Source: Nitratidesulfovibrio sp. (GTDB lineage Bacteria; Desulfobacterota; Desulfovibrionia; Desulfovibrionales; Desulfovibrionaceae). From it: a DNA stretch of 64,000 nt. The stretch is taken from the NCBI RefSeq assembly GCF_040373385.1, contig NZ_JBDXXH010000001.1, positions 9,191 through 73,190 of the forward strand. The letters are read 5' to 3'. How positions within the stretch are numbered: position 1 is the stretch's first letter; every line of letters begins with the position of its first letter. The position numbers were made by a program, and so were the translations under genes. This document shows positions 9,820 to 60,823 of this stretch, one piece after another. Under the pieces are notes generated by a model. It searched no databases. It saw only the letters and a list, made by a program, of their open reading frames with translations, and was not told the DNA's origin.

Positions 9820-10935
9820 CTAGGCTTCCTCTTCGTCCAGCATCAACCCCTCGGGCAGGAAGATGTCGGGTACTTCCCCGGCGAACACCCGGTTGCGGCC
9901 CTGTTCCTTGGCCAGGTACAGTTTCTGGTCGGCCTTGCGGATGTGGTAGTCGATGTCGCCTTCCGGGCCGCAGGTGTGCACGCCAAAGGACAGGGTAACG
10001 CTGACGGGGATGCCGTGGTAGGAATACTCCATGGCTTCCACCTGGCCGCGTAGCTTTTCGGCCAGCCGTGCGGCCCCGGCCTCGTCGGTTTCCGGAAGCA
10101 GCAGCAGGAATTCCTCGCCGCCCCAGCGGCAGATGGTGTCCTGGTGGCGCAGGTTGTCGTGCAGCAGCCCGGCCACCGATTGCAGCACCTGGTCGCCGCA
10201 CTGGTGGCCGTAACAGTCGTTTACCGACTTGAAGTGGTCGATGTCGCAGATGGCGATGGACAGCGGCCTGCCGGTGCGGCGGGCGCGCACCTGCTCGTAT
10301 TCCAGCCGTTCACACAGGGCGCGGCGGTTGGCGAGGCCGGTCAGTTCATCGGTGCGGGCGCTTTCGGCCAGTTGCTGGGTAAGCAGGATGAGCAGGCGCT
10401 GGGTGTGGCGGCGGGTGTATTCCGCAAGCCCTGCGAAGATGCCGCAGCACAGCAGGGCCACAATGTAGCGGATGCGGAAGGCCTGCGAATAGTCGGCGTA
10501 CAGGAAGGGATCGCCCGGCAGGAACAGGATGGCCCCCACCCCCAGCAGCAGGGCGCTCATCAGCAGTATGCCGACGGACAGGCCGAAGGTCAGCATGACC
10601 ACGGGCGGAAAGATGAACAGCCACACAAAGCCGCTGCCCTCCACCCCGCCATGGGACACCATGTACAGCGACAGGCAGAACAGGGCCAGAACCAGCGTGG
10701 TGCTGGGCAGTACGTGGCGTCCGGTGCGGCCCACCCAGAACAGCCCGAACAGGGCAAGGCCCAGCATCACCAGCAGGAACAGGGTGAAGGTGTTCTGGCC
10801 CTGGATGAAATCCAGCACCCCCATTACCGAAGAGAACAGCGCGGTGACGCCATAGAACAGGTTCGCCACGCCGGTGACGCGCGCGGTCTCCGGGTCGGCG
10901 TCGTCCTGCAGGCCGTTGGCCAGCAGGGCGTTCAT
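9820..10935 (-). CDS. Membrane-anchored diguanylate cyclase (multi-TM N-terminus + GGDEF domain)
   Basis: ORF 9820..11508 trimmed to ATG 10935 (MNALLANGLQDD..). An alternative GTG at 10965 has GAGAGG 5 nt upstream. Several TM helices, then RTDELTGLANRR..ICDIDHFKSVNDCYGH..RWGGEEFLLLL. Confidence 0.85.
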   Translation of the reverse strand: MNALLANGLQDDADPETARVTGVANLFYGVTALFSSVMGVLDFIQGQNTFTLFLLVMLGLALFGLFWVGRTGRHVLPSTTLVLALFCLSLYMVSHGGVEGSGFVWLFIFPPVVMLTFGLSVGILLMSALLLGVGAILFLPGDPFLYADYSQAFRIRYIVALLCCGIFAGLAEYTRRHTQRLLILLTQQLAESARTDELTGLANRRALCERLEYEQVRARRTGRPLSIAICDIDHFKSVNDCYGHQCGDQVLQSVAGLLHDNLRHQDTICRWGGEEFLLLLPETDEAGAARLAEKLRGQVEAMEYSYHGIPVSVTLSFGVHTCGPEGDIDYHIRKADQKLYLAKEQGRNRVFAGEVPDIFLPEGLMLDEEEA

Positions 10936-11342
10936 GCAGCGGTGCAACCTGTTCTTTTCGAGCACTGGTGCCTCTCGTGCAACAATGGGGGCGGACAAGG
11001 CCGCACATGCCCGCAACGCACCACGGCATCCGGAACCGGGGCGAAGGTCGGGCTGGCGTGTCCATGCGTGCGGGAAAACGCAAGGGGCGGTGCCGGGCGG
11101 GCCGGTAGTGGCGGCCTCCCCGCACGTTTCCCCAAACGTGCCGCACGCGCGCCTACCGGAATGAAACCTGAGTACTGTGCAGTCGTGAAGTCTGGCCGCA
11201 AGGCGTCGCCGGGGGCGCGGGCCGCTGCGGGGCAGGTGGTCGGGCAACTGACTTGCTGGCCGGCAAGGTGGCCAATGCAACGGCCAATCCTGCGACCGAA
11301 CAGCCGGGCTGCCCAAGGGGGCTGACTCGTCGGCCTGCTCAG

Positions 11343-11448
11343 CCGGATTGACCAGCCGGATTGACCAGCCGGCCTGTCCAGTCAGATTGACCAGCCAGTC
11401 TGTCCAGGTGGACTGCCTCGTCGGACTACTCAACCGGATTGACCAGCC
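11343..11448. repeat. Array of four direct copies of (C)CGGATTGACCAGCC plus two copies of CTGTCCAG
   Basis: Copies at 11343-11357, 11356-11370, 11383-11396 (cagattgaccagcc) and 11434-11448. In non-coding DNA between the GGDEF gene and speA. Confidence 0.8.
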
Positions 11449-11467
11449 AAACGGCTTGGCAGGCCAT

Positions 11468-11483
11468 TGGCACCCCTGCGGCA
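11468..11483 (+). promoter_or_regulatory. Weak sigma-54-type -24/-12 candidate (TGGCACC-N4-CGGCA)
   Basis: ttGGcacccctgcgGCa has the correct 12-nt GG-to-GC register. The -12 element is degenerate (CGGC instead of TTGC). It lies 20-125 bp downstream of the repeat array and about 400 nt upstream of speA. Confidence 0.3.
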
Positions 11484-11738
11484 AGCCAACCAAGTGCCGA
11501 CCAGCCACCTCTTTACGGCGGAATTCGGCCTGGCCTTTAGTCCTTGCTGGATATTGCCTTCACGATGCCACAGCCCCGCCATACCACAGCGTTGCCCGCC
11601 CTGTCAGCGGCAAGTCTTCCCTCACGTCATGCCCTACCGCAAAATGGGTGGAACGCCCACCGGGAGCGCATGCCCCGTCATGCACGCTCAATGATTGCAG
11701 GACTCTGTGACGTTCGTGCGAAAAGGGGGAAAATACCG

Positions 11739-11767: not shown

Positions 11768-11884
11768 GTGCCACTCTTCCAACGCGTGCGCGCCCCTGCC
11801 CTGCACCCGCGCACGAGGGCAAGAGAGAGGCTCTGGTCGGCCCGCCGTAAAGGCGGCGCCGTGGCATGCACCTGTAAACGGGGT

Positions 11885-13822
11885 ATGTATGAGGTTCGGG
11901 AATTGGCAAGAAACCGTACGCTGCAACAGTGGAGTGTCGAAGACTCCGCTGAGCTCTATGGCATCCGCAATTGGGGTGCCGGGTACTTCGATGTCGCCCA
12001 GAGTGGTGATGTCGTGGTCTATCCTTTCGGAGACAACCGCGGTCCTGCCGTAAGCATCCCGGAAATCATCCGGGGCATGCGGGAGCGCGGCTATGACATG
12101 CCGGTGCTCCTGCGCATCGAGAACATTCTCGATTCCCAGATCACCAGTCTTCACCAATCCTTCCGCAAGGCCATCGGGTCGCTCGGCTACAAGGGCGAAT
12201 ACCGGGGCATCTTCCCCATCAAGGTCAATCAGCAGCAGCAGGTGGTCGAAAAGATCGCCCAGTTCGGTTCGCGCTACCACCACGGTCTCGAGGTGGGCAG
12301 CAAGGCCGAACTCATCGCCGCCGTCTCGCAACTGCGTGACCACGAGGCCTGCCTTGTCTGCAACGGCTACAAGGACGAGGAATTCATCGACCTTGGCCTG
12401 CACGCCGTGCGCATGGGCTACAAGTGCTTCTTCGTGCTGGAAATGGCCAGCGAGCTGCCGTTGATTCTCGAACGCGCCAAGTGCCTTGGCGTGCGCCCGC
12501 TCATCGGCGTGCGCGCCAAGCTGTCCGTGAAGGCGGGTGGCCACTGGACCGATTCCGGCGGCGAGCGCTCCACCTTCGGCCTGACCACGGCCCAGATCGT
12601 CGACGTGGTGGACCTGCTGAAGGACCACGACATGCTCGACTGCTTCCAGCTGCTGCACTATCACTTGGGGTCGCAGGTGCCCAACATCCGCGACATCCGC
12701 GCTGCCGTCATGGAAGCCTGCCGCATCTACGGCGGCCTGGTGGCCGAAGGCGCGGCCATGGGCTATCTGGACCTTGGCGGGGGCCTAGCCGTGGACTACG
12801 ACGGCTCGCACACCAACTACGTGAGCAGCCGCAACTACAGCCTGGACGAATACTGCGCGGACATCATCGAAGCGGTGATGAACATCCTCGACGAGGAAGG
12901 CATCGCCCATCCGCACATCGTCACCGAATCGGGCCGCGCCACCGTGGCCTACTACTCCATGCTGCTGTTCAACATCCTGGACGTGAGCCGCGTGGAGATA
13001 GGCAACCTGCCCGACATCCTGCCCGACGACTGCCCCGAGCCCGTGCGCAACATGCGCGAGGCGCTGGCCGGTCTTACCCTGCGCAACCTTCAGGAATGCT
13101 ACAACGACGCCGTGTACTACCGCGACGAAGTGCGCCAGCAGTTCCTGACCGGGCGCATCACCCTGCGCGAACGCACCCTTGGCGAACGCTACTTCTGGGC
13201 CATCATGAAGCGCATCGCCCAGGAAAAGCAGAAGCTGAAGCACGTCCCCAAGGATCTTGCCGAGATAGACGTGGCCCTGGCCGACATCTACTACGGCAAC
13301 TTCAGCGTGTTCCAGTCGCTGCCCGATTCGTGGGCCATCGACCAGCTGTTTCCGGTGGTGCCCCTGCACCGCCTGAACGAGCTGCCCTCGCGCCAGGGCA
13401 TCCTGTCCGACATCACCTGCGACAGCGACGGCCGCATCGACCACTTCATCGACCCGCAAGGCGTGAAGGGCACCCTGGACCTGCACCCCCTGAAGGACGG
13501 CGAGGAATACTACCTCGGCGTGTTCCTGGTGGGGGCGTATCAGGAAACCCTGGGCGACCTGCACAACCTGCTGGGCGACACCAACGTGGTTTCGGTGCGC
13601 GTGCACGAGGACGGCAGCTACGAATTCGTGCGCGAACTGCGCGGCGATTCCGTGGCGGACATCCTGTCGTATGTGGAATACGACCCCCGCCGCATCATCG
13701 ACGACATCCGCGAGGCGGCGGAACAGGCCGTGCGCGAGGGGCGCATCACCCCCTCCGACCGGTACCGGGTGATGCAGGCGTATGAGGATGGGTTGCGGGG
13801 GTACACCTACTTCGAACGCTAA
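11885..13822 (+). CDS. speA: Biosynthetic arginine decarboxylase
   Basis: ORF 11768..13822 trimmed to ATG 11885 (MYEVRELARNRTLQQWSVEDSAELYGIRNWGAGYFDV). PLP-lysine context GIFPIKVNQQQQVVE. Also HYHLGSQ, LDLGGGLAVDYDG, DITCDSDG. Confidence 0.93.
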   Translation: MYEVRELARNRTLQQWSVEDSAELYGIRNWGAGYFDVAQSGDVVVYPFGDNRGPAVSIPEIIRGMRERGYDMPVLLRIENILDSQITSLHQSFRKAIGSLGYKGEYRGIFPIKVNQQQQVVEKIAQFGSRYHHGLEVGSKAELIAAVSQLRDHEACLVCNGYKDEEFIDLGLHAVRMGYKCFFVLEMASELPLILERAKCLGVRPLIGVRAKLSVKAGGHWTDSGGERSTFGLTTAQIVDVVDLLKDHDMLDCFQLLHYHLGSQVPNIRDIRAAVMEACRIYGGLVAEGAAMGYLDLGGGLAVDYDGSHTNYVSSRNYSLDEYCADIIEAVMNILDEEGIAHPHIVTESGRATVAYYSMLLFNILDVSRVEIGNLPDILPDDCPEPVRNMREALAGLTLRNLQECYNDAVYYRDEVRQQFLTGRITLRERTLGERYFWAIMKRIAQEKQKLKHVPKDLAEIDVALADIYYGNFSVFQSLPDSWAIDQLFPVVPLHRLNELPSRQGILSDITCDSDGRIDHFIDPQGVKGTLDLHPLKDGEEYYLGVFLVGAYQETLGDLHNLLGDTNVVSVRVHEDGSYEFVRELRGDSVADILSYVEYDPRRIIDDIREAAEQAVREGRITPSDRYRVMQAYEDGLRGYTYFER

Positions 13823-13946: not shown

Positions 13947-14273
13947 ATGCCTCTTTCGGAAGCGGGCGCCGCAGGCATAGCGCGGTGCGATAAGACGAAA
14001 TCGCACTGTCGCCATGGGCGTGGTAGTGCTTTTGCGGAAATCGCTAAAGGCGTGAAGCGCAAGGCTCCGCACCCCATCGAAGCAGGATACCCTTGATGCA
14101 TGCCATGCCGATCGCATGGTATGCTGACGCCGGTCACCGGCGCATGCAGGCAACAAGCGGGGCCGCCCCATGGTGTGGGGCTGGCCGTTCGGGATAACCA
14201 CAGCAGTGTCGCGCGGTCGCGCGTTTCCGGGCATGGGTGCTCGGGGCGGGCGGGGTGCGCAAAGGAGTGCGTC

Positions 14274-15464
14274 ATGGCACGTGTCCTCATCATCGGCGCT
14301 GGCGGCGTGGGCGGCGTGGTCGTCCACAAGTGCGCGCAGGTTCCCTCCGTATTTTCCGAAATCATGCTGGCAAGCCGCACCAAGTCGAAGTGCGACGCCA
14401 TCGCCGCAGACGTGAAGGCCCGCACCGGGCGCACCATTGAAACGGCCCGGGTCGACGCCGACAACGTGCCCGAGCTGGTGGCGCTGATCCGCGCGTACAA
14501 GCCGGACATGGTGCTGAACATCGCCCTGCCGTACCAGGACCTGACCATCATGGACGCCTGCCTCGAAACCGGCGTGCACTACCTGGACACCGCCAACTAC
14601 GAGCCGCTGGACGAGGCCAAGTTCGAGTACAAGTGGCAGTGGGCCTATCAGGAGCGCTTCGAGAAGGCCGGGCTGATGGCCCTTCTGGGCAGCGGCTTCG
14701 ACCCCGGCGTGACCAACGTGTTCTGCGCCTACGTCATGAAGCACCTGCTGGACGAGGTGCACGTGCTCGACATCATCGACTGCAACGCGGGCGACCACGG
14801 GCACCCCTTTGCCACCAACTTCAACCCGGAAATCAACATCCGTGAAGTGACCGCGCGCGGCCGCTACTGGGAACGGGGCGAGTGGGTGGAAACCGATCCC
14901 CTGTCGTGGTCCATGAACTACGATTTTCCGGAGGGCATCGGCGCCAAGAAGTGCTTCCTCATGTATCACGAGGAACTGGAATCGCTGGTGCAGAACCTGA
15001 ATGGCCTGAAGCGCGCCCGGTTCTGGATGACCTTTTCGGACAATTACCTGAACCACCTGAAGGTGCTGGAAAACGTGGGCATGACCCGCATCGACGAAGT
15101 GGAGCACGACGGCAAGAAGATCGTGCCCATCCAGTTCCTGCGCGCGCTGCTGCCCGACCCGGCATCCCTCGGCCCGCGCACCAAGGGCAAGACCTGCATC
15201 GGCTGCCTGATGCAGGGGGTGAAGGACGGCAAGCCCAAGACCGTCTACATCTACAACGTGTGCGACCATCAGGAATGCTACCGCGAGGTGGGATCGCAGG
15301 CCATTTCGTACACCACTGGCGTGCCCGCCATGATCGGCGCCATGATGATGATGACCGGCAAGTGGTCCGGCAAGGGCGTGTACAACATGGAGCAGCTGGA
15401 CCCCGACCCGTTCATGGACGCCCTGAACAAGCACGGCTTGCCGTGGGTTGTGGTTGAAAAATAG
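14274..15464 (+). CDS. Saccharopine dehydrogenase-family carboxy(nor)spermidine dehydrogenase/synthase
   Basis: ORF 14100..15464 trimmed to ATG 14274 (AAAGGAG upstream). MARVLIIGAGGVGGVVVHKCAQ Rossmann motif. 396 aa. Genomic context with speA, nspC and speB. Confidence 0.88.
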   Translation: MARVLIIGAGGVGGVVVHKCAQVPSVFSEIMLASRTKSKCDAIAADVKARTGRTIETARVDADNVPELVALIRAYKPDMVLNIALPYQDLTIMDACLETGVHYLDTANYEPLDEAKFEYKWQWAYQERFEKAGLMALLGSGFDPGVTNVFCAYVMKHLLDEVHVLDIIDCNAGDHGHPFATNFNPEINIREVTARGRYWERGEWVETDPLSWSMNYDFPEGIGAKKCFLMYHEELESLVQNLNGLKRARFWMTFSDNYLNHLKVLENVGMTRIDEVEHDGKKIVPIQFLRALLPDPASLGPRTKGKTCIGCLMQGVKDGKPKTVYIYNVCDHQECYREVGSQAISYTTGVPAMIGAMMMMTGKWSGKGVYNMEQLDPDPFMDALNKHGLPWVVVEK

Positions 15465-15637: not shown

Positions 15638-16177
15638 ATGTCCATGAACCTGCTCCCGCAAGATGTACTCGTCATGCTCAAGCTTTCGGTGGCGCGGCGT
15701 ACCCGCTGGACCTACGACCAGTTGGGCGTGGCGCTGGGCATGAGCATGTCCATGGTCCACAGTTCCATCAGGCGTGCCGCGCAAGCCCGGCTGTACGATG
15801 AGAACAGGCGAAAGCCCGTGCGCGCCGCGCTGGAGGAATTTCTGGTGCATGGCGTGAAGTACGCCTTTCCTCCAGACATCGGCACGGTGACGCGCGGGGT
15901 GCCGACGGCTTTTGCCGCGCCCGCACTGAAGGGAGAACTCCTGCATGATTCGGGAGCCGAAGCGGTGTATGTCTGGCCGTATCCGGAAGGGGACCATCGG
16001 GGCGTGTCTCTGTCGCCGTTGTATAAATCAGTACCGGTAGTTGCCTTGCGCAATACCCGCCTGTACGACGCCCTGAGCCTGCTCGACGCCATCCGCATCG
16101 GGCGGGCGCGTGAACAGCAGCGGGCGGCTGAATTTCTGAAAGGCATGTTGCGGAGCGATGATGCGCCGACTGCGTAA
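15638..16177 (+). CDS. Winged-helix DNA-binding protein, putative antitoxin/regulator partner of the downstream nucleotidyltransferase (AbiEi-like by architecture)
   Basis: 179-aa ORF. N-terminal HTH WTYDQLGVALGMSMSMVHSSIRRAAQARL. C-terminal domain ..VWPYPEGDHRGVSLSPLYKSVPVVALRNTRLYDALSLLDAIRIGRAREQ. Overlaps the next gene by 20 nt. Confidence 0.6.
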   Translation: MSMNLLPQDVLVMLKLSVARRTRWTYDQLGVALGMSMSMVHSSIRRAAQARLYDENRRKPVRAALEEFLVHGVKYAFPPDIGTVTRGVPTAFAAPALKGELLHDSGAEAVYVWPYPEGDHRGVSLSPLYKSVPVVALRNTRLYDALSLLDAIRIGRAREQQRAAEFLKGMLRSDDAPTA

Positions 16178-16850
16178 CATCGGCCATGTGTTGGACGCCG
16201 CGCGCCTGCTGGGCGACCTTGCGGACGAAGTGGCCTTCGTCGGCGGGGCCAGCGTGGCCTTGTTGCTGACCGACCCGGCGGCCCCGGATGTACGTCCCAC
16301 GCTGGATGTGGACGTCATTGTCGAGGCGGCCACGCGCCACGACTATTACCGCGTGGCCGACCGCCTGCGGTCACGCGGCTTCGCGGAGGACATGGATGTG
16401 GTGTGCCGCTGGCGACACGGAGCGCTGGTGCTCGACGCCATGCCCACGGACGATGCCATTCTGGGCTTTTCCAATTGCTGGTACGCCGATGCCTTGCGCC
16501 ATGCCGTGCGCATGACCGTGGACGGCGTGACCTTGCGGGTGGCCGCCCCGGCGTATTTTCTGGCCACCAAGCTGGAAGCCTTTCGGGGGCGGGGCAACGG
16601 CGATTACCTCACCAGCCACGACATGGAAGACCTGGTGGCCGTGCTGGATGGCCGATCGGATATCGCGGGCGAGGTACAGGCTGCGGACGCAGCCGTGCGC
16701 GGCTACCTTGCTGCGGCCTTTGCCGCGCTGCTGGCCGATGACGACTTTCTGGACGCGCTGCCCGGCTACCTGCCGCCCGACCCGGCAAGCCAGAGGCGCG
16801 TCCCCCTGCTCATGGGGCGCATGCGCCCCATCGCCACGGGTGGGGTGTAA
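16158..16850 (+). CDS. Nucleotidyltransferase-fold protein (AbiEii/minimal NTase-like, putative toxin)
   Basis: 230-aa ORF. NTase signature FVGGASVALLLTDPAAPDVRPTLDVDVIV (GG..x..DxD). A further acidic residue in LVLDAMP. Helical C-terminal half YFLATKLEAFRGRGNGDYLTSHDMEDLVAVLDGR. Confidence 0.6.
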   Translation: MMRRLRNIGHVLDAARLLGDLADEVAFVGGASVALLLTDPAAPDVRPTLDVDVIVEAATRHDYYRVADRLRSRGFAEDMDVVCRWRHGALVLDAMPTDDAILGFSNCWYADALRHAVRMTVDGVTLRVAAPAYFLATKLEAFRGRGNGDYLTSHDMEDLVAVLDGRSDIAGEVQAADAAVRGYLAAAFAALLADDDFLDALPGYLPPDPASQRRVPLLMGRMRPIATGGV

Positions 16851-16936: not shown

Positions 16937-18166
16937 ATGATGGACCAAGCCTATCTCGCCAAGCTCGACCCCACCCGCTTCCCGTCCCCGTGCTTTGTGG
17001 TGGACGAGGCCCGCATAGAGGCAAATGCCGCCATTCTGGACACGGTGCAGCGCCGCACCGGGGCAAAGGTGCTGCTGGCGCTGAAGGGCTTTGCCATGTG
17101 GAGCCTGTTTCCGCTGCTGTCGCGCGCGCACGGCGGGGTGCTGCACGGCACCTGCGCCAGTTCCCCGCACGAGGCGCGGCTGGGCCGCGAGGAATTCGGG
17201 GGCGAGGTGCACGCCTTTGCCGCCGGGTACAGCGCTGCGGACATGGCCGAATTGGTGACCCTGGCCGATCATCTGGTGTTCAACTCGTTCGCGCAGTGGG
17301 ACCGGTTTCGCCCGGCGGTGGCGGCGGCGGGGCGGCCCATCGAGTGCGGCATGCGCATCAATCCGGAGCACTCGGAAGGGGCGGTGGCCATCTACAACCC
17401 CTGCTCGCCGGGTTCGCGCCTGGGGGTGCGGCCCCACCACTTCGAGGCCGCCCTGGCCGAGGCGGCGGCGCGCGGCCAGGACGCGCTGGACGGCATATCC
17501 GGCCTGCATTTCCACACCCTGTGCGAGCAGGACGCCGACGCGCTGGACCGCACCCTGCACGCGGTGGAGGCGAAGTTCGGCGCGCATCTTTCGCGCATGA
17601 AATGGCTGAACTTCGGCGGCGGGCATCACATCACCCGTCCCGGCTACGACCTTGACCTGCTGTGCCGGTGCATCGACCGCATGCAGCAGAAGTACGGGGT
17701 GCGGGTGTATATCGAGCCGGGCGAGGCCGTGGCCCTGAACGCCGGGGTGCTGCTGTGCACCGTGCTGGACGTGGTGCAGGCCGACATGCCCGTTGCCATT
17801 CTGGACACCTCTGCCGCCGCGCACATGCCCGACGTGCTGGAAATGCCCTATCGCCCCGGCTGCATCGGTTCCGGCCTGCCGGGCGAGAAGGCGTGGACCT
17901 GCCGTTTCGCGGGCAAGTCGTGCCTGGCGGGCGATGTCATCGGCGAATACTCGTTCGACGCGCCCCTGCAACCCGGCGACCGGCTGGCCTTCCTGGACAT
18001 GGCCATCTACAGCATGGTCAAGACCACCACCTTCAACGGGCTGCAACTGCCCGCCATTGCCCGCTACCGGTCGGCAGACGCGGATGGCGATGCCGTCGGG
18101 CGGGGCGCGCGGCGCGAGGTGGTGCGCTCCTTCGGGTACGAGGCGTTCAAGTACCGCCTGTCCTGA
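16937..18166 (+). CDS. nspC: Carboxy(nor)spermidine decarboxylase
   Basis: 409-aa ORF with AAGGAG upstream. MMDQAYLAKLDPTRFPSPCFVVDEARIEANAAIL..ALKGFAMWSLFP..; alanine-racemase-fold decarboxylase pattern ..NFGGGHHITRPGYD..CLAGDVIGEY. Confidence 0.9.
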   Translation: MMDQAYLAKLDPTRFPSPCFVVDEARIEANAAILDTVQRRTGAKVLLALKGFAMWSLFPLLSRAHGGVLHGTCASSPHEARLGREEFGGEVHAFAAGYSAADMAELVTLADHLVFNSFAQWDRFRPAVAAAGRPIECGMRINPEHSEGAVAIYNPCSPGSRLGVRPHHFEAALAEAAARGQDALDGISGLHFHTLCEQDADALDRTLHAVEAKFGAHLSRMKWLNFGGGHHITRPGYDLDLLCRCIDRMQQKYGVRVYIEPGEAVALNAGVLLCTVLDVVQADMPVAILDTSAAAHMPDVLEMPYRPGCIGSGLPGEKAWTCRFAGKSCLAGDVIGEYSFDAPLQPGDRLAFLDMAIYSMVKTTTFNGLQLPAIARYRSADADGDAVGRGARREVVRSFGYEAFKYRLS

Positions 18167-18277
18167 TGCGGCGGGCATGCGGTTCGCCAGTCCGTGCGGC
18201 TTTCGGGGGTGCTTGCGCCTGCGTTCGGCAATGCCTAGCATGTGTCCATGCGGGCGCCATGCGCCCCGGAGGCAGCC

Positions 18278-18592
18278 ATGATCTACATCGATGACAACGC
18301 GCGGGAGCGCATTTTGTCGGACGGCGGCAACGTGATCGTGTACATGCAGGCGGCGCGTGGCTGCGGCTGAGCATCGCGCATCATGCCCGTGCGAACCCCC
18401 GCCGTGCGCGTGGGGCAACCCCCGGAATGGATGCGGCCCGCCTTTCACCGGCACATGGTGGACGGCGTGGTGGTGTGGCTGGACCCGTCGGTAAAGCGGT
18501 TGCGCTGGGACGAACCGGCCCGCGTGCGGCTGCGCCGGTTCCTGTGGTTTTCGTATTTCGACGTGGAGGGGGCGCGCACCCTGGTGGCCTAG
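18278..18592 (+). CDS. Small conserved-looking protein with an in-frame TGA (candidate selenocysteine, G-C-G-U motif); 104 codons if read through
   Basis: ATG 18278 has GGAGG 6 nt upstream. This opens a 30-codon frame ending at TGA 18368-18370. The track ORF 18383..18592 is in the same frame (offset 105 nt) and has no SD of its own. GC3-rich codon usage continues across the TGA. An imperfect hairpin lies at 18385..18416. Confidence 0.5.
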
Positions 18593-18630
18593 CCTGCCGG
18601 GGGCGAGAGCCCCGCGCTGACGTGAGCGGA

Positions 18631-18701
18631 CGTGCGCGGCCCGTGCGATTCCTGCGGCCCGTACGATCCGTGGGGTCCGTACGATGTGCGCGGCCCGTGG
18701 G
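18631..18701. repeat. Degenerate ~18-bp tandem repeat (gcggcccgtRcgatYc-like, about 4 units)
   Basis: gtgcgcggcccgtgcgattc / ctgcggcccgtacgatcc / gtggggtccgtacgat / gtgcgcggcccgtggggg, in the spacer upstream of speB. Confidence 0.6.
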
Positions 18702-18909
18702 GGCGGGCGCGGTCTGGCGCGGACCCTGCGTGCCGTGCCCATGTGCCGCAGATCGCGGCCCGGCACGCGCTTTTCGGTTCATGGTTTCGGCTGCCGCCCC
18801 CCGATGGGCGGCGTTGTTGGAAGGGCCGCGCGGCATGTCAGGGGTGTCATGGCGCGCGGATGGGCAAACAGCCGCCTCCCCGCGCGGGAAGGCGTTACCG
18901 GAGCTTGCC

Positions 18910-19779
18910 ATGCGGCACGCCGAAGGGCGTTTCTTGGCCTCTGAACTGGACAATGCCGCGCCCGCCGGGGCGCGTTTTCATGTCATCCCCGTCCCCTACG
19001 AAGACAGCGTTTCCTACGGCGGGGGCACGGCGGCGGGGCCTGCCGCCATCCTTGCCGCGTCGGACCAGCTGGAACTGTGGGACGGCGAATCGGTGCCCGC
19101 AGAGCTTGGCATTCACACCGCGCCCGCCGTGGACTGTTCCGGCGGGGCGGAGGCGGTGCTGGCGCGCATCGAGGCGGCCACGGCCACGGCCCTGTCCCAC
19201 GGGGGGCTGCCCGTGCTGCTGGGCGGCGAGCATACCGTCACCCTTGGGGCGCTGCGGGCGCTGCACCGCCAGCACGGCAGGTTCGGGGTCATCCAGTTCG
19301 ACGCCCACGCCGACCTGCGCGACAGCTACGGCGGCACCCCCTACAGCCACGCGGCGGTGATGCGCCGCGCCGTGGCCGACCTTGGCCTGCCGCTGTTCCA
19401 GATCGGGGTGCGCGCCCTGTGCCGCGAAGAAGTGGACTGCCGCGCCGCGCTGGGCATCGGCCATCTGGACGCCGCCGCGCTGGCCCGCCACGGCATCCCC
19501 GACCCGCTGCTGCCGCCGGGCTTTCCGGAACGCATCTACGTGACCTTCGACGTGGACGGGCTGGACCCCTCCATCATGCCCGCCACCGGCACTCCGGTGC
19601 CCGGCGGCCTTGGCTGGTACGACGCCCGGCGCTGCCTGGAACTGGCCATGGCCGGGCGGCAGGTGCTGGGCTTTGACGTGGTGGAACTGGCCCCCATGCT
19701 GGGCTTTCACGCGGCGGACTTTGCGGCGGCGCGGCTGGTGTACGACATCATGGGGCTGGTGCAGCGGCTGGGCCGCTGA
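18910..19779 (+). CDS. speB: Agmatinase (ureohydrolase family)
   Basis: ORF 18427..19779 trimmed to ATG 18910 (GGAG upstream). MRHAEGRFLASELD..; Mn-binding motifs GGEHTVT, FDAHADLRD, TFDVDGLDPS, VELAP. Confidence 0.9.
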   Translation: MRHAEGRFLASELDNAAPAGARFHVIPVPYEDSVSYGGGTAAGPAAILAASDQLELWDGESVPAELGIHTAPAVDCSGGAEAVLARIEAATATALSHGGLPVLLGGEHTVTLGALRALHRQHGRFGVIQFDAHADLRDSYGGTPYSHAAVMRRAVADLGLPLFQIGVRALCREEVDCRAALGIGHLDAAALARHGIPDPLLPPGFPERIYVTFDVDGLDPSIMPATGTPVPGGLGWYDARRCLELAMAGRQVLGFDVVELAPMLGFHAADFAAARLVYDIMGLVQRLGR

Positions 19780-20039: not shown

Positions 20040-22667
20040 TCAGATGGTGCCGCCCCCGTCGCGGGGCACGGTCAGTCGTCTGCCCCGTACCAGCAGCGCG
20101 GCGAACTCTTCCGGCGGCAGGGGGCGGCTGAACAGGAATCCCTGCACCTCGTGGCAGCCTTCCAGCAGCAGGAAGTTGAGCTGTTCCGGCGTTTCCACCC
20201 CTTCGGCCACCACGCGTAGCCCCAGCCTGTCGGCCATGGTGATGATGGTGGCGGCGATGGCCGCGTCGTTGGGGTCGTCGGGGATGTCGCGGATGAACGA
20301 ACGGTCGATCTTCAGCGAGGTCAGCGGCAGGTTCTTGAGCTGGGACAGCGAGGAGTAGCCGGTGCCGAAGTCGTCCACCGAAAGGGCAATGCCCATTTCC
20401 GCCAGTTGGTTCAGCTTGCGGATGGTGTGGTCCGCGTCGGTGACGATGGTGGATTCGGTGATTTCCAGTTCCAGCAGGTGCGGCGGCAGGCCCGTTTCGG
20501 CCAGCACGTCGGCCACCATGCCCACCAGGTTGCGGTGGCGGAACTGATGCAGCGAAAGGTTCACGGCCACGTGCAGGTCGGCGTGCCCGGCATCGCACAG
20601 GGCGCGGGTTCTGGCGCAGGCCAGGCGCAGCATGTGCTCGCCAAGGGGCACGATGAGCCCCGTGGATTCGGCCAGCGGGATGAACTCCGCCGGGTGTTCC
20701 TGGCTGCCGTCGGCGCGGGTCCAGCGGGCCAGGGCCTCCATGCCGGTGATCAGGCCGGTGTTCAGGTCCACGCGCGGCTGGTAGTGGGCGGTGATGTCTC
20801 CGGCGGCCAGGGCGCGGTGCAGGTCGCCTTCCAGCGACAGGCGGCGCACGGCGCGTTCGTTCATGGCCGGGGTGAACAGGTGGTAGCGGCGCTTGCCCTG
20901 TTCCTTGGCGCGCGACATGGCGATGTCGGCGTTGCGCACCAGGGTGTCCGGGTCGTCGCCGTCGTCGGGAAACAGGGCTATGCCCACGCTGGCGCCCACG
21001 AACAGTTCGTGTTCCTGCACGCGCACCGGGTCGGTGAACCGGGCCAGCAGCCGTTCGGCCACCTGCGCGGCGTCGCGTTCGTTCTCCACGTCCTGCAGCA
21101 CCACGACGAATTCGTCGCCGCCCACGCGGGCCAGGGTGTCCTGCGGGCGGACCATCTGGCGCATCTGCTCGGCGGCCTGTTGCAGGTAGATGTCGCCCAC
21201 CATGTGGCCCAGGCTGTCGTTGACCTGCTTGAAGTTGTCCAGGTCCACCGACAGCACGGCCACCTTGCGGCCCTCGCGCCGGGCGCCGTTGATGGCCATG
21301 CCCAGCCGGTCGCGCAACAGGGCGCGGTTGGGCAGGCCGGTGAGCGCGTCATGGTGGGCCTGGTGCTGGATCTGCGATTCCTTGGCCTTCAGTTCCGTGA
21401 TGTCGTGGAACACGGCCACGTAGTATTCGGTGCGCCCGGTGGGGCCGGGTATGGCGCTGATGCTCAGCCACTCGGGGTAGACCTCGCCGTTCTTGCGGCG
21501 GTTCCAGATTTCTTCTTCCCAGCGGCCATCCTCCACCAGGGTGCGCCACATGTCCTCGTAGAAGGCGCTGTCGTGGTGGTGCGACTTGAGGATGCGCGGG
21601 GTCGCGCCCACGGCTTCTTCCGCCGGGTACCCGGTGATGGTGGTGAAGGCCGGGTTCACCGCCACGATGGTACCTTCCGGGTCGGTGATGCAGATGCCTT
21701 CCAGCGCGTTGCGGAACACCCGTTCGAACAGCCGCGCCTGCCGTTCGGCGGCGCGGCGGCCGGAAATGTCGTGCACCACCACCAGTGCGGCCATGCCCTC
21801 GCCCCGCAGCAGGGACAGGGGCAGGGGCTCCACGCTCACCTCGGCCTCGTGGCTGCCCTGCGCGGTGGCGCAGACCCCCTCCATGCAGAAGCCGCCGGTC
21901 GGGCAGGATTCGTGCGGGACTGTGGGCGGTCCCGCCGGGGTGGCGTCGGGCAGGGGGCTTCCGGCCAGCAGGTTGTCGATGCGGGCCTCGATGTCCGGGG
22001 GCAGCAGGTCCGCCGTGCGCAGGGACAGCAGGGCCTGGCGCGGGTGGCCGGACATGCGTTCGGCGGTGCGGTTGCAGTCCACGATGCGGCCGCCCTCGCC
22101 GCGTACGTACACGGCGTCGGGGGCCAGTTCGAACAGCGCGCGGAAGCGGGCGGTGCTTTCGGCAAGCGCGGCGGTGCGCTGGCGCACCTCTTCTTCTATT
22201 TCGGCCTGGACCAGGGCGGTGACGTCGAAGGCCAGGCCCAGCACGGCACCTGCCCCGGCCACCTCGGGCGGCAGGGGCAGCTTGGCCACGCGGAACACCC
22301 GCTCGGTAGCGTCGTCGGGCAGCATGCGCTCGCACAGCATGGGGGTTTCGTCGGCGGCCACGCGCCGGTCCTCGTCCAGCAGGGCGCTGGCCACGGCATG
22401 GGGAAAGATGTCGTGCGGGGAAAGGCCCACCATGTCCTTGCCGGGCACTCCGGCCAGGTCGGCGTACAACTGGTTGGCGGCCAGATAGCGGCCCTGGCCG
22501 TCGCGCAGGAACATGGCCACCATGGGGTTGTCCAGCAGGGCGCGCAGCAGGCCGGGCATCTTGCCGGCGGACGCGTCGTCGCCAGCCCTCACCCCGCCAA
22601 CTGCCCCACCGGTGGCGTGCTGTTCCTGTTTCCTGTCCCGCCTGTCGCCCGTCCTGTCGTCCGTCAT
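20040..22667 (-). CDS. Multi-PAS GGDEF-EAL signalling protein (c-di-GMP turnover)
   Basis: ORF 20040..23441 trimmed to ATG 22667 (AGGGGGG upstream; MTDDRTGDRRDRKQ..). PAS segments. GGDEF domain HDALTGLPNRA..RVGGDEFVVVL. EAL domain GMEALARW..ELEITES..DDFGTGYSSLS..LKIDRSF..AEGVET. Confidence 0.9.
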   Translation of the reverse strand: MTDDRTGDRRDRKQEQHATGGAVGGVRAGDDASAGKMPGLLRALLDNPMVAMFLRDGQGRYLAANQLYADLAGVPGKDMVGLSPHDIFPHAVASALLDEDRRVAADETPMLCERMLPDDATERVFRVAKLPLPPEVAGAGAVLGLAFDVTALVQAEIEEEVRQRTAALAESTARFRALFELAPDAVYVRGEGGRIVDCNRTAERMSGHPRQALLSLRTADLLPPDIEARIDNLLAGSPLPDATPAGPPTVPHESCPTGGFCMEGVCATAQGSHEAEVSVEPLPLSLLRGEGMAALVVVHDISGRRAAERQARLFERVFRNALEGICITDPEGTIVAVNPAFTTITGYPAEEAVGATPRILKSHHHDSAFYEDMWRTLVEDGRWEEEIWNRRKNGEVYPEWLSISAIPGPTGRTEYYVAVFHDITELKAKESQIQHQAHHDALTGLPNRALLRDRLGMAINGARREGRKVAVLSVDLDNFKQVNDSLGHMVGDIYLQQAAEQMRQMVRPQDTLARVGGDEFVVVLQDVENERDAAQVAERLLARFTDPVRVQEHELFVGASVGIALFPDDGDDPDTLVRNADIAMSRAKEQGKRRYHLFTPAMNERAVRRLSLEGDLHRALAAGDITAHYQPRVDLNTGLITGMEALARWTRADGSQEHPAEFIPLAESTGLIVPLGEHMLRLACARTRALCDAGHADLHVAVNLSLHQFRHRNLVGMVADVLAETGLPPHLLELEITESTIVTDADHTIRKLNQLAEMGIALSVDDFGTGYSSLSQLKNLPLTSLKIDRSFIRDIPDDPNDAAIAATIITMADRLGLRVVAEGVETPEQLNFLLLEGCHEVQGFLFSRPLPPEEFAALLVRGRRLTVPRDGGGTI

Positions 22668-23060
22668 TCGGAACCCCCCTTGAAAGCACGGCGCACGTGG
22701 ATGTCCAGATGGCATGCCATACCAGAAAGCGCGGGGGGCCGGAAGAGGCTGACGCGTACCCCTCCTCTGTGCCTGTCCATCCGCCGACCGGCTGCCCGTC
22801 ACATGACTGCGCGGACGACGAATGCGGGCAGGCGACCCGAATGTGGGCGATGCAGGGGAGGGGGCGGGGCGGGGGTTGCACAGGTCGCGCCAGTCGTGCC
22901 ATTGTGCATGCATCGGCATTCCCTTGCCATGCCTTGTACCGCCGTGTTCTGCATGATCGCGGGCATTCGTCCGCGCATGCCGCGCCCGGCCCGGTGGGCG
23001 ACAGCGGGGGGTGCGCCCACGCGACGCCACTGGCGCGCACAGCACGAAGGAGTCCGCGTC

Positions 23061-23486
23061 ATGCCCTATGCACGAATACTGCTTCCCATGGATGGTTCGG
23101 AGCATGCCCGCCTGGCCCTGCGCCACGCGGTGAACCTGGCTCGTTGCGGTGGCACGGGGCACGTTGTGCTTATGCACAGCTTTGGCGAAATTCCCGCCCT
23201 CATCGGCGGCGAGCCGCGCGAGGAACTGGTGCGTGAATGCACCCAGGAGGCGGAAGCCATGCTGGCCGAGCCGCGCGCCCTGCTGGACGAACTGGGCGTG
23301 CCCAATTCCGTGCGCATCGTGGACGGTGCCCCCGGCAGGGCCGTGGTGCGCGTCTGCGACGAGGAAGGGTGCGACACCATCGTCATGGGTTCTCGCGGGT
23401 TGGGCGAATTGGGCGGCATGATCATGGGCAGCGTCACCCATCAGGTGCTTCAGTTGGCTAAGGTGCCCGTGCTGGTCGTCCGCTAG
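23061..23486 (+). CDS. Universal stress protein (UspA family)
   Basis: ATG 23061 with GAAGGAG upstream, inside the artefactual ORF 20406..23486. MPYARILLPMDGSEHARLALRHAV..IVMGSRGLGELGGMIMGSVTHQVLQLAKVPVLVVR. Confidence 0.88.
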   Translation: MPYARILLPMDGSEHARLALRHAVNLARCGGTGHVVLMHSFGEIPALIGGEPREELVRECTQEAEAMLAEPRALLDELGVPNSVRIVDGAPGRAVVRVCDEEGCDTIVMGSRGLGELGGMIMGSVTHQVLQLAKVPVLVVR

Positions 23487-29840: not shown

Positions 29841-30917
29841 TTACCGCTCGGTGCAGCTGATGCACGGGTCGATGGTCAGGGCCGCGATGGGCACGTCGGC
29901 AAGCTGCGCGCCGGGCAGCATGGCCAGAAGCGGCGGGATGTTGGCGAAGGTGGGGGTGCGGATGCGCACCCGCTCCATGTTCTTCGAGCCATTGCCCTTC
30001 AGGTAGTACAGCAACTCGCCGCGCGGCTGTTCGACGCGGCAGACCACCTCGCCGGTGGGCTTGCCGGGAACCTTGGCGGCCAGTTCCGTATCGGGCAGGC
30101 GCGAAATGGCCTGACGCACGATATCCATGGATTGCAGCGTTTCCATGAACCGGACCTTGGAACGGGCCCAGCTGTCGCCCTCGGGCGAGGTGACGGGCTC
30201 GAAGTCCAGTTCGTCGAAGGCCGCGTAGCCAAGCTGGCGGGCGTCCTGGGCAACGCCGCTGCCGCGCAGGGTGGGGCCGACCGCGCCGAGTTGGAGGGCC
30301 TGTTGGGCCGTCAGCACGCCCACGCCCACGGTGCGCTTCTTCACGGTGTAGTCGTCGAGCATGGTCTTCATCAGCTGGCGCAGTTCCTTTTCCAGCTTGT
30401 CCAGCTCGTCGAGGATCCAGCGCTGCTGGGTCTTGTCCAGGTCGCGGCGCACGCCGCCCACCACGTTGACAGAGATGACCACGCGGTTGCCCGCCGTGGC
30501 TTCGTTGATGTCCATGACGCGTTCGCGAATCTTCCAGAACTGCATGAACAGGCTTTCGAAGCCGAAACCGTCGGCGAACAGGCCCAGCCACAGAAGGTGG
30601 CTGTGGATACGGTGCAGTTCCGACCAGATGACCCGCAGGTACTTGGCGCGGCTCGGCACTTCCACGTTCATCATGGTTTCAAGGCCCTGGCAGTAGCACA
30701 TGGCGTGGATGCACGAACAGATGCCGCACACCCGCTCCACGATGTAGACCATCTGGTTGTAGTCACGAATGCTGGCGAGGGTTTCGAGGCCGCGATGCAC
30801 GTAGCCCAGGGCGGGCACGGCTTCGACGATGGTTTCATCCTCGACGACCAGTTTCAGGTGCAGGGGTTCCGGCAGAACCGGATGCTGCGGACCGAAAGGA
30901 ATGATGGTGCGGGACAT
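29841..30917 (-). CDS. echE: Ech hydrogenase subunit E ([NiFe] large subunit, NuoD-like)
   Basis: 358-aa ORF. N-terminal Ni-binding RVCGICSCIH and C-terminal DPCISCTER. Confidence 0.92.
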   Translation of the reverse strand: MSRTIIPFGPQHPVLPEPLHLKLVVEDETIVEAVPALGYVHRGLETLASIRDYNQMVYIVERVCGICSCIHAMCYCQGLETMMNVEVPSRAKYLRVIWSELHRIHSHLLWLGLFADGFGFESLFMQFWKIRERVMDINEATAGNRVVISVNVVGGVRRDLDKTQQRWILDELDKLEKELRQLMKTMLDDYTVKKRTVGVGVLTAQQALQLGAVGPTLRGSGVAQDARQLGYAAFDELDFEPVTSPEGDSWARSKVRFMETLQSMDIVRQAISRLPDTELAAKVPGKPTGEVVCRVEQPRGELLYYLKGNGSKNMERVRIRTPTFANIPPLLAMLPGAQLADVPIAALTIDPCISCTER

Positions 30918-55100: not shown

Positions 55101-55131
55101 ACGGGCCGTCCGGCTATGCCGGGCGGCCCGT
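55101..55131. terminator. Hairpin between convergent MCP and cbiL genes
   Basis: acgggccgtccgg-ctatg-ccgggcggcccgt (13-bp stem, one mismatch). Confidence 0.5.
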
Positions 55132-55169
55132 TGACGTTCATGGCGGATTGGGGGGGGAGTCGGGAAAGG

Positions 55170-55949: not shown

Positions 55950-56045
55950 GAAAAACCTCTTGGGGCTATGCGCGGTCGGTCCGTGTCCGGCAAGCCGTGG
56001 GGCAAGCCTGGGGCAGGACAACCATGGGGTTCAGGGGACGGCCTG

Positions 56046-59354: not shown

Positions 59355-60823
<1,469 letters not shown>

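What the first reader, a model, noticed from the sequence alone, without database searches (positions are those of the whole stretch)
18278..18592. In-frame UGA fuses two short ORFs between nspC and speB: candidate selenoprotein with a G-C-G-U motif
ATG 18278 has a strong SD (GGAGG, 6-nt spacing). It opens MIYIDDNARERILSDGGNVIVYMQAARGCG, then TGA at 18368-18370. The frame continues unchanged (offset 105 nt to the track ORF 18383..18592) as ASRIMPVRTPAVRVGQPPEWMRPAFHRHMVDGVVVWLDPSVKRLRWDEPARVRLRRFLWFSYFDVEGARTLVA-TAG.

Four observations favour read-through. The downstream half has no ribosome-binding site of its own. GC3-biased codon usage is continuous across the TGA. A Cys sits two residues before the TGA (a C-x-U redox-type pair). 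An imperfect 9-bp hairpin with one bulged G (18385-18416) starts 15 nt after the TGA, where a bacterial SECIS would lie.

The layout (I-x-I-D-x-x-A-x-x-x-I ... G-C-G-U ... V-D-G-V-V-V-x-L-D) loosely recalls the N-terminal two thirds of HesB/IscA-type proteins. This resemblance is only my impression. Desulfovibrio species are known Sec users. The gene is embedded in a polyamine biosynthesis cluster, which is an unexplained association.
Basis: partly seen in the sequence, partly recalled or inferred. Interest (0 to 1): 0.78.

Follow-up and report, generated by a model that had tools for sequence, protein, structure and literature searches.

The report
CC/Se-family selenoprotein gene with SECIS
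The two short reading frames between nspC and speB are one 104-residue gene whose internal UGA is almost certainly read as selenocysteine, and it belongs to a small selenoprotein family of unknown function that is already catalogued, so the call is right but not new.

Summary
ATG 18278 and TGA 18368-18370 lie in one frame that runs to TAG 18590-18592, with coding-type GC3 on both sides of the TGA.

With U written as C, the 104-aa product passes the curated cut-off of NCBIfam NF041239, "CC/Se motif family (seleno)protein" (Pfam PF28096). A 2026 review lists this family as a known prokaryotic selenoprotein family.

All 16 family genes recovered keep an in-frame TGA at the same protein column. 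They come from six Nitratidesulfovibrio-group lineages plus a tandem paralogue, Spirochaetota, Syntrophomonas and metagenomes.

Downstream of the UGA the family shares two hairpins with compensatory changes. The second, at window 18396-18415, has loop CGUGC, a bulged U, and lies 32 nt after the UGA. It meets the published bacterial SECIS model.

AlphaFold models of two family members match only IscA/SufA structures, so the HesB/IscA impression holds at fold level. Sequence-level membership is not shown, and the window protein has no C-terminal Cys-x-Cys motif.

The polyamine-gene neighbourhood is confined to Nitratidesulfovibrio.

Verdict: a real selenoprotein gene, split in public annotation, and a new member of a known kind. 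Function remains unknown.

The parts
18268..18272 (+). Shine-Dalgarno GGAGG, 5 nt before the ATG
   Evidence: Read directly. Conserved in L001/L002.
18278..18592 (+). Complete selenoprotein gene: 104 codons including Sec31, plus stop TAG 18590-18592
   Evidence: With U written as C it scores 42.7 bits against NF041239 (cut-off 40), covering profile positions 3-90 of 91.
18362..18364 (+). Cys29 codon (TGC), the only Cys in the protein, two residues before Sec
   Evidence: It is TGT in L001, a synonymous change.
18368..18370 (+). UGA read as selenocysteine (Sec31)
   Evidence: An in-frame TGA occupies this protein column in all 16 family genes found. The column is invariant in alignment A4.
18374..18394 (+). 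Hairpin 1: U-CGCGC, loop AUCAUGCCC, GUGCG-A (6 bp including one G-U). It lies at the same place as a hairpin with covariation in other lineages.
   Evidence: Energy -7.5 kcal/mol and about 27% ensemble probability. The family hairpin shows compensatory changes. The register in the window is shifted by 2 nt relative to the family columns, so the homology is approximate.
18396..18415 (+). Hairpin 2, the best SECIS candidate: CCCC-CGC, loop CGUGC (18403-18407), GCG, bulged U18411, GGGG. The loop starts 32 nt after the UGA.
   Evidence: Energy -11.7 kcal/mol. Together with hairpin 1 it gives -19.2 against an MFE of -19.8. RNAalifold predicts this hairpin in the other lineages. A covariance model built without any Nitratidesulfovibrio sequence aligns to 18368-18424 with all 6 pairs formed. 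In 16 sequences 97.9% of cells are paired. It meets the bSECIS model given in PMC13188914.
16937..18166 (+). Upstream neighbour nspC (carboxynorspermidine decarboxylase type). Its stop codon 18164-18166 is TGA.
   Evidence: Pfam Orn_DAP_Arg_deC. Stop codon read.
18910..19779 (+). Downstream neighbour speB-like gene (arginase/agmatinase family)
   Evidence: Pfam Arginase, E = 3e-63. Start placed by alignment to the L001 orthologue.

Best explanation
Positions 18278-18592 form a single gene for a 104-residue selenoprotein of the CC/Se motif family (NCBIfam NF041239, Pfam PF28096).

Translation mechanism. This step is inferred from the established bacterial Sec pathway. When the ribosome reaches UGA 18368-18370, SelB-GTP carrying Sec-tRNA(Sec) is held by a stem-loop inside the coding sequence, and selenocysteine is inserted instead of termination. 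The stem-loop is most likely 18396-18415, which has a G-U in a 5-nt apical loop, a bulged U, and lies 32 nt downstream of the UGA.

Protein. The product has an IscA/SufA-like alpha+beta fold. The Cys29-Gly-Sec31 pair sits on the flexible loop between the two long beta strands. By position this is where A-type carriers have their first ligand cysteine.

Function. My committed guess, at about 0.3 likelihood, is that this exposed Cys/Sec pair cycles through a selenenylsulfide or binds a metal or chalcogen species. That would make the protein a small redox or carrier protein. It is not a classical three-cysteine Fe-S scaffold.

Genomic position. Its place between nspC and speB is a lineage-specific location and possibly means co-transcription. 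It is not a family-wide functional link.
For: Shown directly:
- The frame is continuous, and both halves have coding-type composition and substitution patterns.
- The fused product passes the curated NF041239 cut-off, while neither half does alone. All six diverse members tested also hit NF041239.
- An in-frame TGA sits at the same column in six Nitratidesulfovibrio-group lineages (the window, L001, L008-L011), the L010 tandem paralogue, two Spirochaetota MAGs, a Syntrophomonas MAG and several metagenome contigs. Most of these genes end in TAA or TAG.
- In some lineages the first downstream ATG lies 16 or more codons past the TGA, inside conserved protein sequence (P0011/P0012 against L019/L021).
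- RNAalifold predicts two hairpins, both with compensatory changes.
- A covariance model built without Nitratidesulfovibrio sequences puts its best window hit exactly on the UGA, at 18368-18424.
- In a structure-blind alignment of 16 sequences, 97.9% of hairpin-2 cells are paired. One pair occurs as C-G (7), U-A (6) and G-C (2).
- Hairpin 2 meets every constraint of the bSECIS model: loop 3-9 nt, G then U within the first positions, 16-37 nt spacing, energy at or below -7.5 kcal/mol.
- UGA is an ordinary stop for the neighbouring nspC.
- AlphaFold models of P0009 (pLDDT 84) and P0006 (pLDDT 89) have SufA/IscA as their top 6-7 PDB matches. Probability is 1.00 for the six crystal-structure chains and TM is about 0.45-0.5. 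Scores then drop sharply.

From the literature: the genus uses Sec. Examples are the N. vulgaris FdhAB SeCys (PMC13080415), the HysL [NiFeSe] hydrogenase (PMC13582414) and eight selenoproteins in D. vulgaris (PMC1794560).
Against: - My searches recovered no Cys-containing homologue, so the classical Sec/Cys pairing test was not met here.
- selA, selB, selC and selD could not be looked for in this genome. None lies in the 64-kb window, and there is no tRNA there.
- The region does not fold more stably than shuffled sequence.
- The covariance-model E-value for the window is only 0.13, and part of that score comes from protein-level conservation of the P-A-V-x-x-G codons.
- Third-position conservation over the hairpins is not significantly higher than elsewhere in the gene (p = 0.40).
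- No Rfam SECIS family matches.
- The spacing C-x-U differs from the CU, CxxU or GGGU seen in other members.
- There is no experimental evidence of selenium incorporation.
- The functional proposal rests only on fold similarity (TM about 0.5) and on the position of the loop.
Confidence: 0.88

Rival explanations
1. UGA 18368 is a true stop. The locus encodes two separate small proteins of 30 aa and 69 aa, with the second translated by re-initiation at ATG 18383.
For: Public gene callers annotate it this way (P0001, P0003 and the 30-aa and 69-aa genes in L001). ATG 18383 lies 13 nt after the stop, a distance compatible with coupling.
Against: No RBS precedes ATG 18383. Only the fused product passes the family cut-off. 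In other lineages the downstream ATG is absent or lies 16 or more codons further on, within conserved sequence. The same frame is kept across the TGA in all 16 genes.
Confidence: 0.04
2. The gene is a pseudogene in which a Cys codon (TGC/TGT) mutated to TGA.
For: TGA is one substitution away from TGC or TGT. No Cys form was found for comparison.
Against: The TGA is kept in six Nitratidesulfovibrio-group lineages that differ at many synonymous sites, and in three other phylum-level groups. Purifying selection continues downstream of the TGA. A conserved SECIS-type structure follows it.
Confidence: 0.02
3. The UGA is read through, but by a standard amino acid (near-cognate Trp, Cys or Arg) and not by Sec. 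The downstream hairpins act as a general read-through stimulator.
For: Sequence alone cannot identify the inserted residue. Two database entries translate the TGA as W (P0006, P0009).
Against: Those W residues come from the depositors' choice of genetic code. The same genes end in ordinary stops, and L014 is a Syntrophomonas MAG. Hairpin 2 fits the SelB-type bSECIS model with G-U in the apical loop. The family is curated as a selenoprotein family (PMC13188914). Both the genus and Syntrophomonas are Sec users.
Confidence: 0.05
4. The SECIS is the first reader's 9-bp hairpin with a bulged G at 18385-18416.
For: It can be drawn at -9.5 kcal/mol and starts 15 nt after the UGA.
Against: Its ensemble probability is under 1%. 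[quoted passage not shown] The G18415-to-A change in L009 and L011 breaks one of its pairs. It has no counterpart in other lineages, where alifold and the covariance model support hairpins 1 and 2 instead.
Confidence: 0.05

Closest known systems
CC/Se motif family (seleno)protein, NCBIfam NF041239 (Moor_selen_rel) / Pfam PF28096 CC_Se_fam. [quoted passage not shown]
   Same: It passes the curated HMM cut-off over nearly the whole profile. Size is about 100-110 aa. There is a single Sec near residue 31, just after a Gly-rich turn and close to a Cys. The conserved P-A-V-x-x-G-x-P and D-G-I/V-x-V-W motifs are present.
   Different: The spacing is C-G-U. The family name implies CU or CC, and the review lists CxxU. 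The window protein has no further Cys, whereas Spirochaetota members keep a Cys near the C-terminus. It sits in a polyamine gene cluster, which is not seen for other members.
A-type Fe-S carriers IscA/SufA/HesB (Pfam PF01521; PDB 1r94, 1s98, 1x0g, 2d2a)
   Same: The predicted fold matches: these are the only meaningful PDB matches for two family members. The order of secondary-structure elements is the same, and a reactive Cys/Sec lies in the loop after the first long strand. That is where E. coli IscA has Cys35 (inferred from position; IscA sequence checked).
   Different: No significant sequence similarity was found: hhalign probability 0.6%, PF01521 at E = 0.16 in one of six members, and no PDB hit by profile. 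The C-terminal C-x-C ligands (IscA Cys99 and Cys101) are absent.
HesB-like selenoprotein (TIGR01911, motif UxGP)
   Same: It is a small Sec protein on an IscA-type scaffold, with Sec in the first-cysteine loop. It occurs in Desulfovibrio and other anaerobes (PMC1794560; PMC13188914).
   Different: No TIGR01911 hit appears for any of six members even at E up to 10. The motif after Sec is U-x-P or U-A-S, not UxGP.
Bacterial SECIS consensus (bSECISearch model), with the E. coli fdhF SECIS as the classic case
   Same: It is a stem-loop inside the coding region with a small apical loop carrying G followed by U, a bulged U in the 3' strand, and 32 nt from UGA to the loop. Spirochaetota members have a GGUCA loop on a UGC/GCA stem. 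From my own recollection, this resembles the fdhF GGUC loop.
   Different: A second conserved hairpin lies between the UGA and the SECIS-type hairpin. No Rfam SECIS model matches.

Membership tests
CC/Se motif family (NF041239 / PF28096) | Score at or above the curated cut-off of the family HMM over most of its length | tested here: met
   42.7 bits against a cut-off of 40, covering profile 3-90 of 91, for the fused product with U written as C. The halves alone score 16.8 and 23.1 bits. Homologues carry a precomputed PF28096 hit.
CC/Se motif family (NF041239 / PF28096) | Cys-Cys or Cys-Sec motif at the reactive site | tested here: inconclusive
   The window has C-G-U. Relatives have C-U (L014, L024, L010 paralogue), C-G-G-U (L005, L015-L017, L025) or G-G-G-U (L019, L021). 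The Sec column is fixed, but the position of the Cys varies.
Bacterial selenoprotein gene | In-frame UGA conserved in orthologues, with a conserved downstream frame | tested here: met
   All 16 genes from at least four phylum-level groups keep it. Selection pattern.
Bacterial selenoprotein gene | Cys-containing homologues that align Cys with the UGA | tested here: not met
   None was found in three word-indexed protein searches, one exhaustive HMMER search (query: the C-terminal 73 aa only) and two contig scans. The two full-length database proteins have W at the site because the TGA was translated. The family name implies that Cys forms exist, but I did not see one.
Bacterial selenoprotein gene | SECIS stem-loop fitting the bSECIS model: loop 3-9 nt, G in the first two loop positions followed by G or U, 16-37 nt from UGA, energy at or below -7.5 kcal/mol | tested here: met
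   For 18396-18415: loop CGUGC, 32 nt spacing, -11.7 kcal/mol. Model constraints are quoted from PMC13188914. Supported by comparison across lineages.
Bacterial selenoprotein gene | selA, selB, selC and selD present in the same genome | not testable with these tools
   Only 64 kb is available. It has no tRNA and no sel genes among the ORFs scanned. At genus level, N. vulgaris makes Sec proteins.
Bacterial selenoprotein gene | Selenium demonstrably incorporated at the UGA | not testable with these tools
   This needs 75Se labelling or mass spectrometry.
A-type carrier / HesB-IscA (PF01521) | Significant match to the family profile | tested here: not met
   PF01521 appears at E = 0.16 in 1 of 6 members and not for the window protein. 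hhalign against E. coli IscA gives probability 0.6%. The profile search against PDB gives no hit.
A-type carrier / HesB-IscA (PF01521) | Three ligand cysteines (Cys35 and the C-terminal Cys99-x-Cys101 in E. coli IscA) | tested here: not met
   The window protein has only Cys29 and Sec31, with no C-terminal C-x-C. IscA residue numbering was checked on a sequence 106/107 identical to 1s98.
A-type carrier / HesB-IscA (PF01521) | IscA/SufA fold | tested here: met
   Foldseek top hits are 2d2a, 1x0g, 1r94 and 1s98, with probability 1.00 for these six crystal-structure chains and TM 0.45-0.51. E-values go down to 1.8e-4, for two independently modelled members. The window protein itself could not be modelled, because the fused sequence is not accepted by the tool.
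HesB-like selenoprotein (TIGR01911) | Match to the TIGR01911 HMM and the UxGP motif | tested here: not met
   No hit at E up to 10 for six members. The motif here is U-A-S-R.

The most novel reading that the evidence does not exclude
The CC/Se family is an obligately Sec-dependent, highly diverged branch of the IscA/SufA A-type carriers. It has lost the C-terminal cysteine ligands and now works through a single mobile Cys/Sec loop. In Nitratidesulfovibrio it would have been recruited into the arginine-to-(nor)spermidine operon, for example to keep a redox-sensitive step or a metal centre of that pathway active. This would give a first functional handle on the family and an unexpected link between selenium and polyamine synthesis. 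The evidence does not exclude this reading. The fold match, the absence of any Cys form in my searches, and synteny across six Nitratidesulfovibrio-group lineages (with a tandem duplicate in one) are compatible with it. The lack of this context in other phyla argues against a general link.
Probability: 0.1. Interest if true: 0.6.

Novelty: new member of a known kind. Interest (0 to 1): 0.3.

Why it matters
Practical value. In the public protein data I could search, the Nitratidesulfovibrio copies appear only as a 69-aa or truncated fragment, named 'hypothetical protein' where a name is given, and gene callers split the locus into 30-aa and 69-aa genes. Recognising one Sec-containing gene corrects the annotation and adds a member to the selenoproteome of a well-studied group of sulfate reducers.

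Scientific value. Three modest additions came out of the check.
1. The family's predicted fold is IscA/SufA-like, with Sec at the position of the first ligand cysteine. This narrows hypotheses for a family with no known function.
2. The family shares a two-hairpin structure after the UGA. The second hairpin fits the bacterial SECIS model and shows covariation across phyla.
3. Every member I recovered uses Sec, not Cys.

None of this overturns current understanding.

Tried and rejected
- **Pfam-A scan.** The local Pfam-A copy gave nothing for the fused product or for either half. It appears not to hold PF28096.
- The exhaustive representative search and the structure predictor refuse the fused U-to-C sequence. 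I therefore searched with the C-terminal 73 aa only (few hits, three of them repeats or low-complexity sequence). I modelled P0009 and P0006 in place of the window protein.
- **Word-indexed protein searches.** Searches with the fused protein and with two profiles found only close relatives and split or W-translated members, and no Cys form.
- **Metagenome scans.** The scan with A3 found nothing. A Spirochaetota-type profile found six loci.
- **Plasmid tblastn.** No match.
- **Rfam.** A permissive scan of 18200-18700 gave no SECIS family, only two chance-level hits.
- **Single-sequence folding.** The MFE for 18365-18430 is no better than for shuffled sequence.
- **Synonymous-site conservation.** An excess over the hairpins was not significant.
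- **hhalign** of the family profile against E. coli IscA was not significant.
- **Shared gene neighbourhood.** None was found across lineages. Neighbours are glycosyltransferases, TPR, NUDIX, sensor kinases, pilin-like genes, a sigma-54 activator and MprF.
- **Exact-sequence cluster look-up.** The tool does not accept the letter U.
- **Sec machinery in the window.** No sel genes and no tRNA were found.

Full report
**1. The observation**

ATG 18278 is preceded by GGAGG at 18268-18272, with a 5-nt spacer and not 6. Thirty sense codons (MIYIDDNARERILSDGGNVIVYMQAARGCG) are followed by TGA at 18368-18370. The same frame then continues for 73 codons to TAG 18590-18592.

GC content by codon position is 0.57/0.40/0.90 before the TGA and 0.72/0.50/0.88 after it. 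The neighbouring nspC gives 0.70/0.48/0.89, and no other frame or strand shows this pattern.

Among six Nitratidesulfovibrio-group sequences, third codon positions vary much more than first and second positions on both sides of the TGA. The counts are 14/30 against 6/60 before it and 18/55 against 11/110 after it. Both parts are therefore translated in this frame and are under purifying selection.

UGA is an ordinary stop codon in this genome: nspC ends with TGA at 18164-18166.

**2. What it is**

With Sec written as Cys, the 104-residue product scores 42.7 bits against NCBIfam NF041239, "CC/Se motif family (seleno)protein". The curated cut-off is 40 bits and the match covers profile positions 3-90 of 91. 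The two halves alone score only 16.8 and 23.1 bits.

Homologues in the large protein collection carry the precomputed Pfam family PF28096, CC_Se_fam. [quoted passage not shown] The family is therefore already known, though only from computational work, and no function is assigned to it.

**3. Source organism and orthologues**

A scan of one genome per species found the gene at 92-96% protein identity in four records:
- Nitratidesulfovibrio sp. HK-II
- N. oxamicus
- Nitratidesulfovibrio sp. 1201_IL3209
- a Desulfovibrio MAG

A more distant lineage, 87% identical over the C-terminal part, came from Logan assemblies. All of them keep the TGA. The codons around it carry synonymous differences in this frame, such as TGC/TGT for Cys29, GGC/GGT, CGT/CGG and GCA/GCC/GCG.

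Distant members at 21-38% identity were found in two Spirochaetota MAGs, a Syntrophomonas MAG and several metagenome contigs. Every one has an in-frame TGA at the same alignment column, and most end in TAA or TAG.

The local motifs are:
- G-C-G-U in the Nitratidesulfovibrio group
- C-G-G-U in L005, L015, L016, L017 and L025
- G-G-G-U in L019 and L021
- G-C-U in L024 and the L010 paralogue
- D-C-U in L014

The Sec position is fixed while the nearby Cys moves.

Two full-length database proteins, P0006 and P0009, looked like non-Sec homologues. They turned out to be the same kind of gene with the TGA translated as W by the depositor.

In L019 and L021 the first downstream ATG lies 16 codons after the TGA, inside the conserved stretch GPARQVTSRIPAVC. 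That stretch can only be made by reading through the TGA.

I found no Cys-containing member, so the classical Sec/Cys pairing criterion was not met in my hands.

**4. The SECIS question**

- It has under 1% probability in the ensemble.
- Its 13-nt loop has no G at the start.
- One of its pairs is broken in L009 and L011.
- The region as a whole folds no better than shuffled sequence, with z = +1.54.

Comparative analysis gave a different answer. I aligned nine non-Nitratidesulfovibrio sequences from the TGA onward. The alignment is gap-free and structure-blind. RNAalifold predicts two hairpins on it.

Hairpin 1 starts 8 nt after the UGA. Four of its six pairs show changes on both sides, and no shuffle out of 500 reached its covariation score.

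Hairpin 2 covers the P-A-V-x-x-G codons. It has six pairs, a one-base bulge and a 5-nt loop (GGUCA, AGUUA or GGUCU). In this set 96% of its cells are paired.

I then built a covariance model from these nine sequences only. Its best hit in the 64-kb window is 18368-18424, anchored on the UGA, at 16.4 bits and E = 0.13. All six pairs of hairpin 2 are formed: CCC-CGC, loop CGUGC, GCG, bulged U18411, GGG.

In a MAFFT alignment of all 16 sequences, 97.9% of hairpin-2 cells are paired. One pair occurs as C-G in 7 sequences, U-A in 6 and G-C in 2. The 5' partner of that pair is the synonymous third position of the Pro codon.

In the window, hairpins 1 and 2 together have -19.2 kcal/mol. This is within 0.6 kcal/mol of the MFE, and the ensemble probability is about 27%.

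Hairpin 2 (18396-18415, -11.7 kcal/mol) satisfies every constraint of the published bacterial SECIS model (PMC13188914):

| Constraint | Model | Hairpin 2 |
|---|---|---|
| Apical loop length | 3-9 nt | 5 nt (CGUGC) |
| Spacing from UGA to the loop | 16-37 nt | 32 nt |
| Energy | at or below -7.5 kcal/mol | -11.7 kcal/mol |

There are caveats.
- The stems do not vary within the genus, apart from one C-to-U change that keeps a G-U pair.
- Third-position conservation over the hairpins is not significantly raised (p = 0.40).
- Part of the covariance-model score reflects protein conservation.
- No Rfam SECIS model matches.

**5. Sec machinery**

The window holds no tRNA and no sel genes, and I could not scan the rest of the genome.

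The genus does use Sec. N. vulgaris Hildenborough FdhAB has a SeCys ligand (PMC13080415). Its HysL is a [NiFeSe] hydrogenase (PMC13582414). Eight selenoproteins including SelD were counted in D. vulgaris (PMC1794560).

**6. Fold and likely mode of action**

The fused window protein cannot be submitted to the predictor, so I modelled two family members. Each was modelled with a 10-row family alignment that includes the window's C-terminal part.
- P0009: pLDDT 84, pTM 0.73
- P0006: pLDDT 89, pTM 0.79

For both, the only convincing PDB matches are E. coli SufA and the IscA structures (2d2a, 1x0g, 1r94, 1s98). For these six crystal-structure chains the probability is 1.00 and TM is 0.43-0.51. E-values range from about 0.05 down to 1.8e-4. 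After the top 6-7 hits the scores collapse.

It is not detectable at sequence level:
- PF01521 appears at E = 0.16 in one of six members.
- hhalign against IscA gives probability 0.6%.
- The family profile gives no hit against PDB sequences.
- TIGR01911, the HesB-like selenoprotein family, gives no hit.

In both models the Sec position lies in the low-confidence loop between the two long strands. By order of elements, this is where IscA has Cys35 (inference; IscA sequence checked).

The window protein has no other Cys apart from Cys29, so the C-terminal C-x-C ligands of A-type carriers are missing.

My working mechanism is therefore an exposed Cys29/Sec31 pair that forms a selenenylsulfide or binds a metal or chalcogen species on an IscA-like scaffold. 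This is inference only, and I give it about 0.3.

**7. Gene context**

The gene order in the window is as follows (speB start):

| Gene | Coordinates |
|---|---|
| speA | 11768-13822 |
| carboxynorspermidine dehydrogenase | 14100-15464 |
| AbiE-like ORF pair | 15638-16850 |
| nspC | 16937-18166 |
| the selenoprotein gene | 18278-18592 |
| speB-like agmatinase | 18910-19779 |

The position between nspC and speB is kept in all Nitratidesulfovibrio-group loci. One MAG even has a second, tandem Sec-containing paralogue there.

Around family members in other phyla there are no polyamine genes and no recurring neighbours. The association is lineage-specific and is weak evidence for function.

**8. 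Verdict**

This is a selenoprotein gene that standard gene callers split in two.

It is a new member of a known, computationally defined family, not a new kind of element. What this check adds is the corrected SECIS location, with comparative support, and the IscA/SufA-like fold.

I put confidence in Sec decoding at about 0.88. The function remains open.

Noticed in passing
L010:6378-6689 (uncultured Desulfovibrio MAG CAYOCV010000010.1): A second, tandem CC/Se paralogue lies directly after the first copy and before speB. It is 41% identical to the window protein, has the motif R-G-C-U with an in-frame TGA, and has the same hairpin-2 DNA (CCCGCCGTGCGCGTGGG). The window has no such second copy.
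   Followed up: partly
window 15638-16850: Two ORFs, the second with a weak AbiEii (type IV toxin-antitoxin nucleotidyltransferase) match, sit between the carboxynorspermidine dehydrogenase gene and nspC. The block is present in L008-L011 (85-94% DNA identity). It is absent in the L001-L004 lineage, where the two polyamine genes are 89 nt apart.
   Followed up: partly
window 18593-18909: The 317-nt spacer between the selenoprotein gene and speB contains short tandem repeats (18636-18698, period 18 and 9). These differ between strains: L009 has a (GGCCTGTCT)n array there, and L001 has only a 127-nt spacer. Only the last 55 nt or so before speB are conserved.
   Followed up: partly
P0006 (= L007/L014) and P0009 (= L025): Two ENA-derived protein records of this family are full length only because the depositor's gene caller translated the Sec TGA as Trp. 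They look like non-Sec homologues but are not.
   Followed up: yes
window 29841-30917 (- strand): This is a Group 4 (Ech/Coo-type) [NiFe] hydrogenase large subunit next to complex-I-like membrane subunits. Its C-terminal motif is DPCISCTER, so it is the Cys form and not one of the recently described Sec variants.
   Followed up: yes
window 55116-59454 (+) and 60909-63941 (-): Three long ORFs of 757, 768 and 1009 aa gave no Pfam match at E up to 1e-5. In this 67% GC sequence some of them may be spurious.
   Followed up: no
window 9820-11508 (-), 20040-23441 (-), 41198-42562 (-): Three GGDEF-domain proteins lie within 64 kb. One has MASE6, and one has PAS repeats plus EAL. Two of them flank the polyamine cluster.
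   Followed up: no
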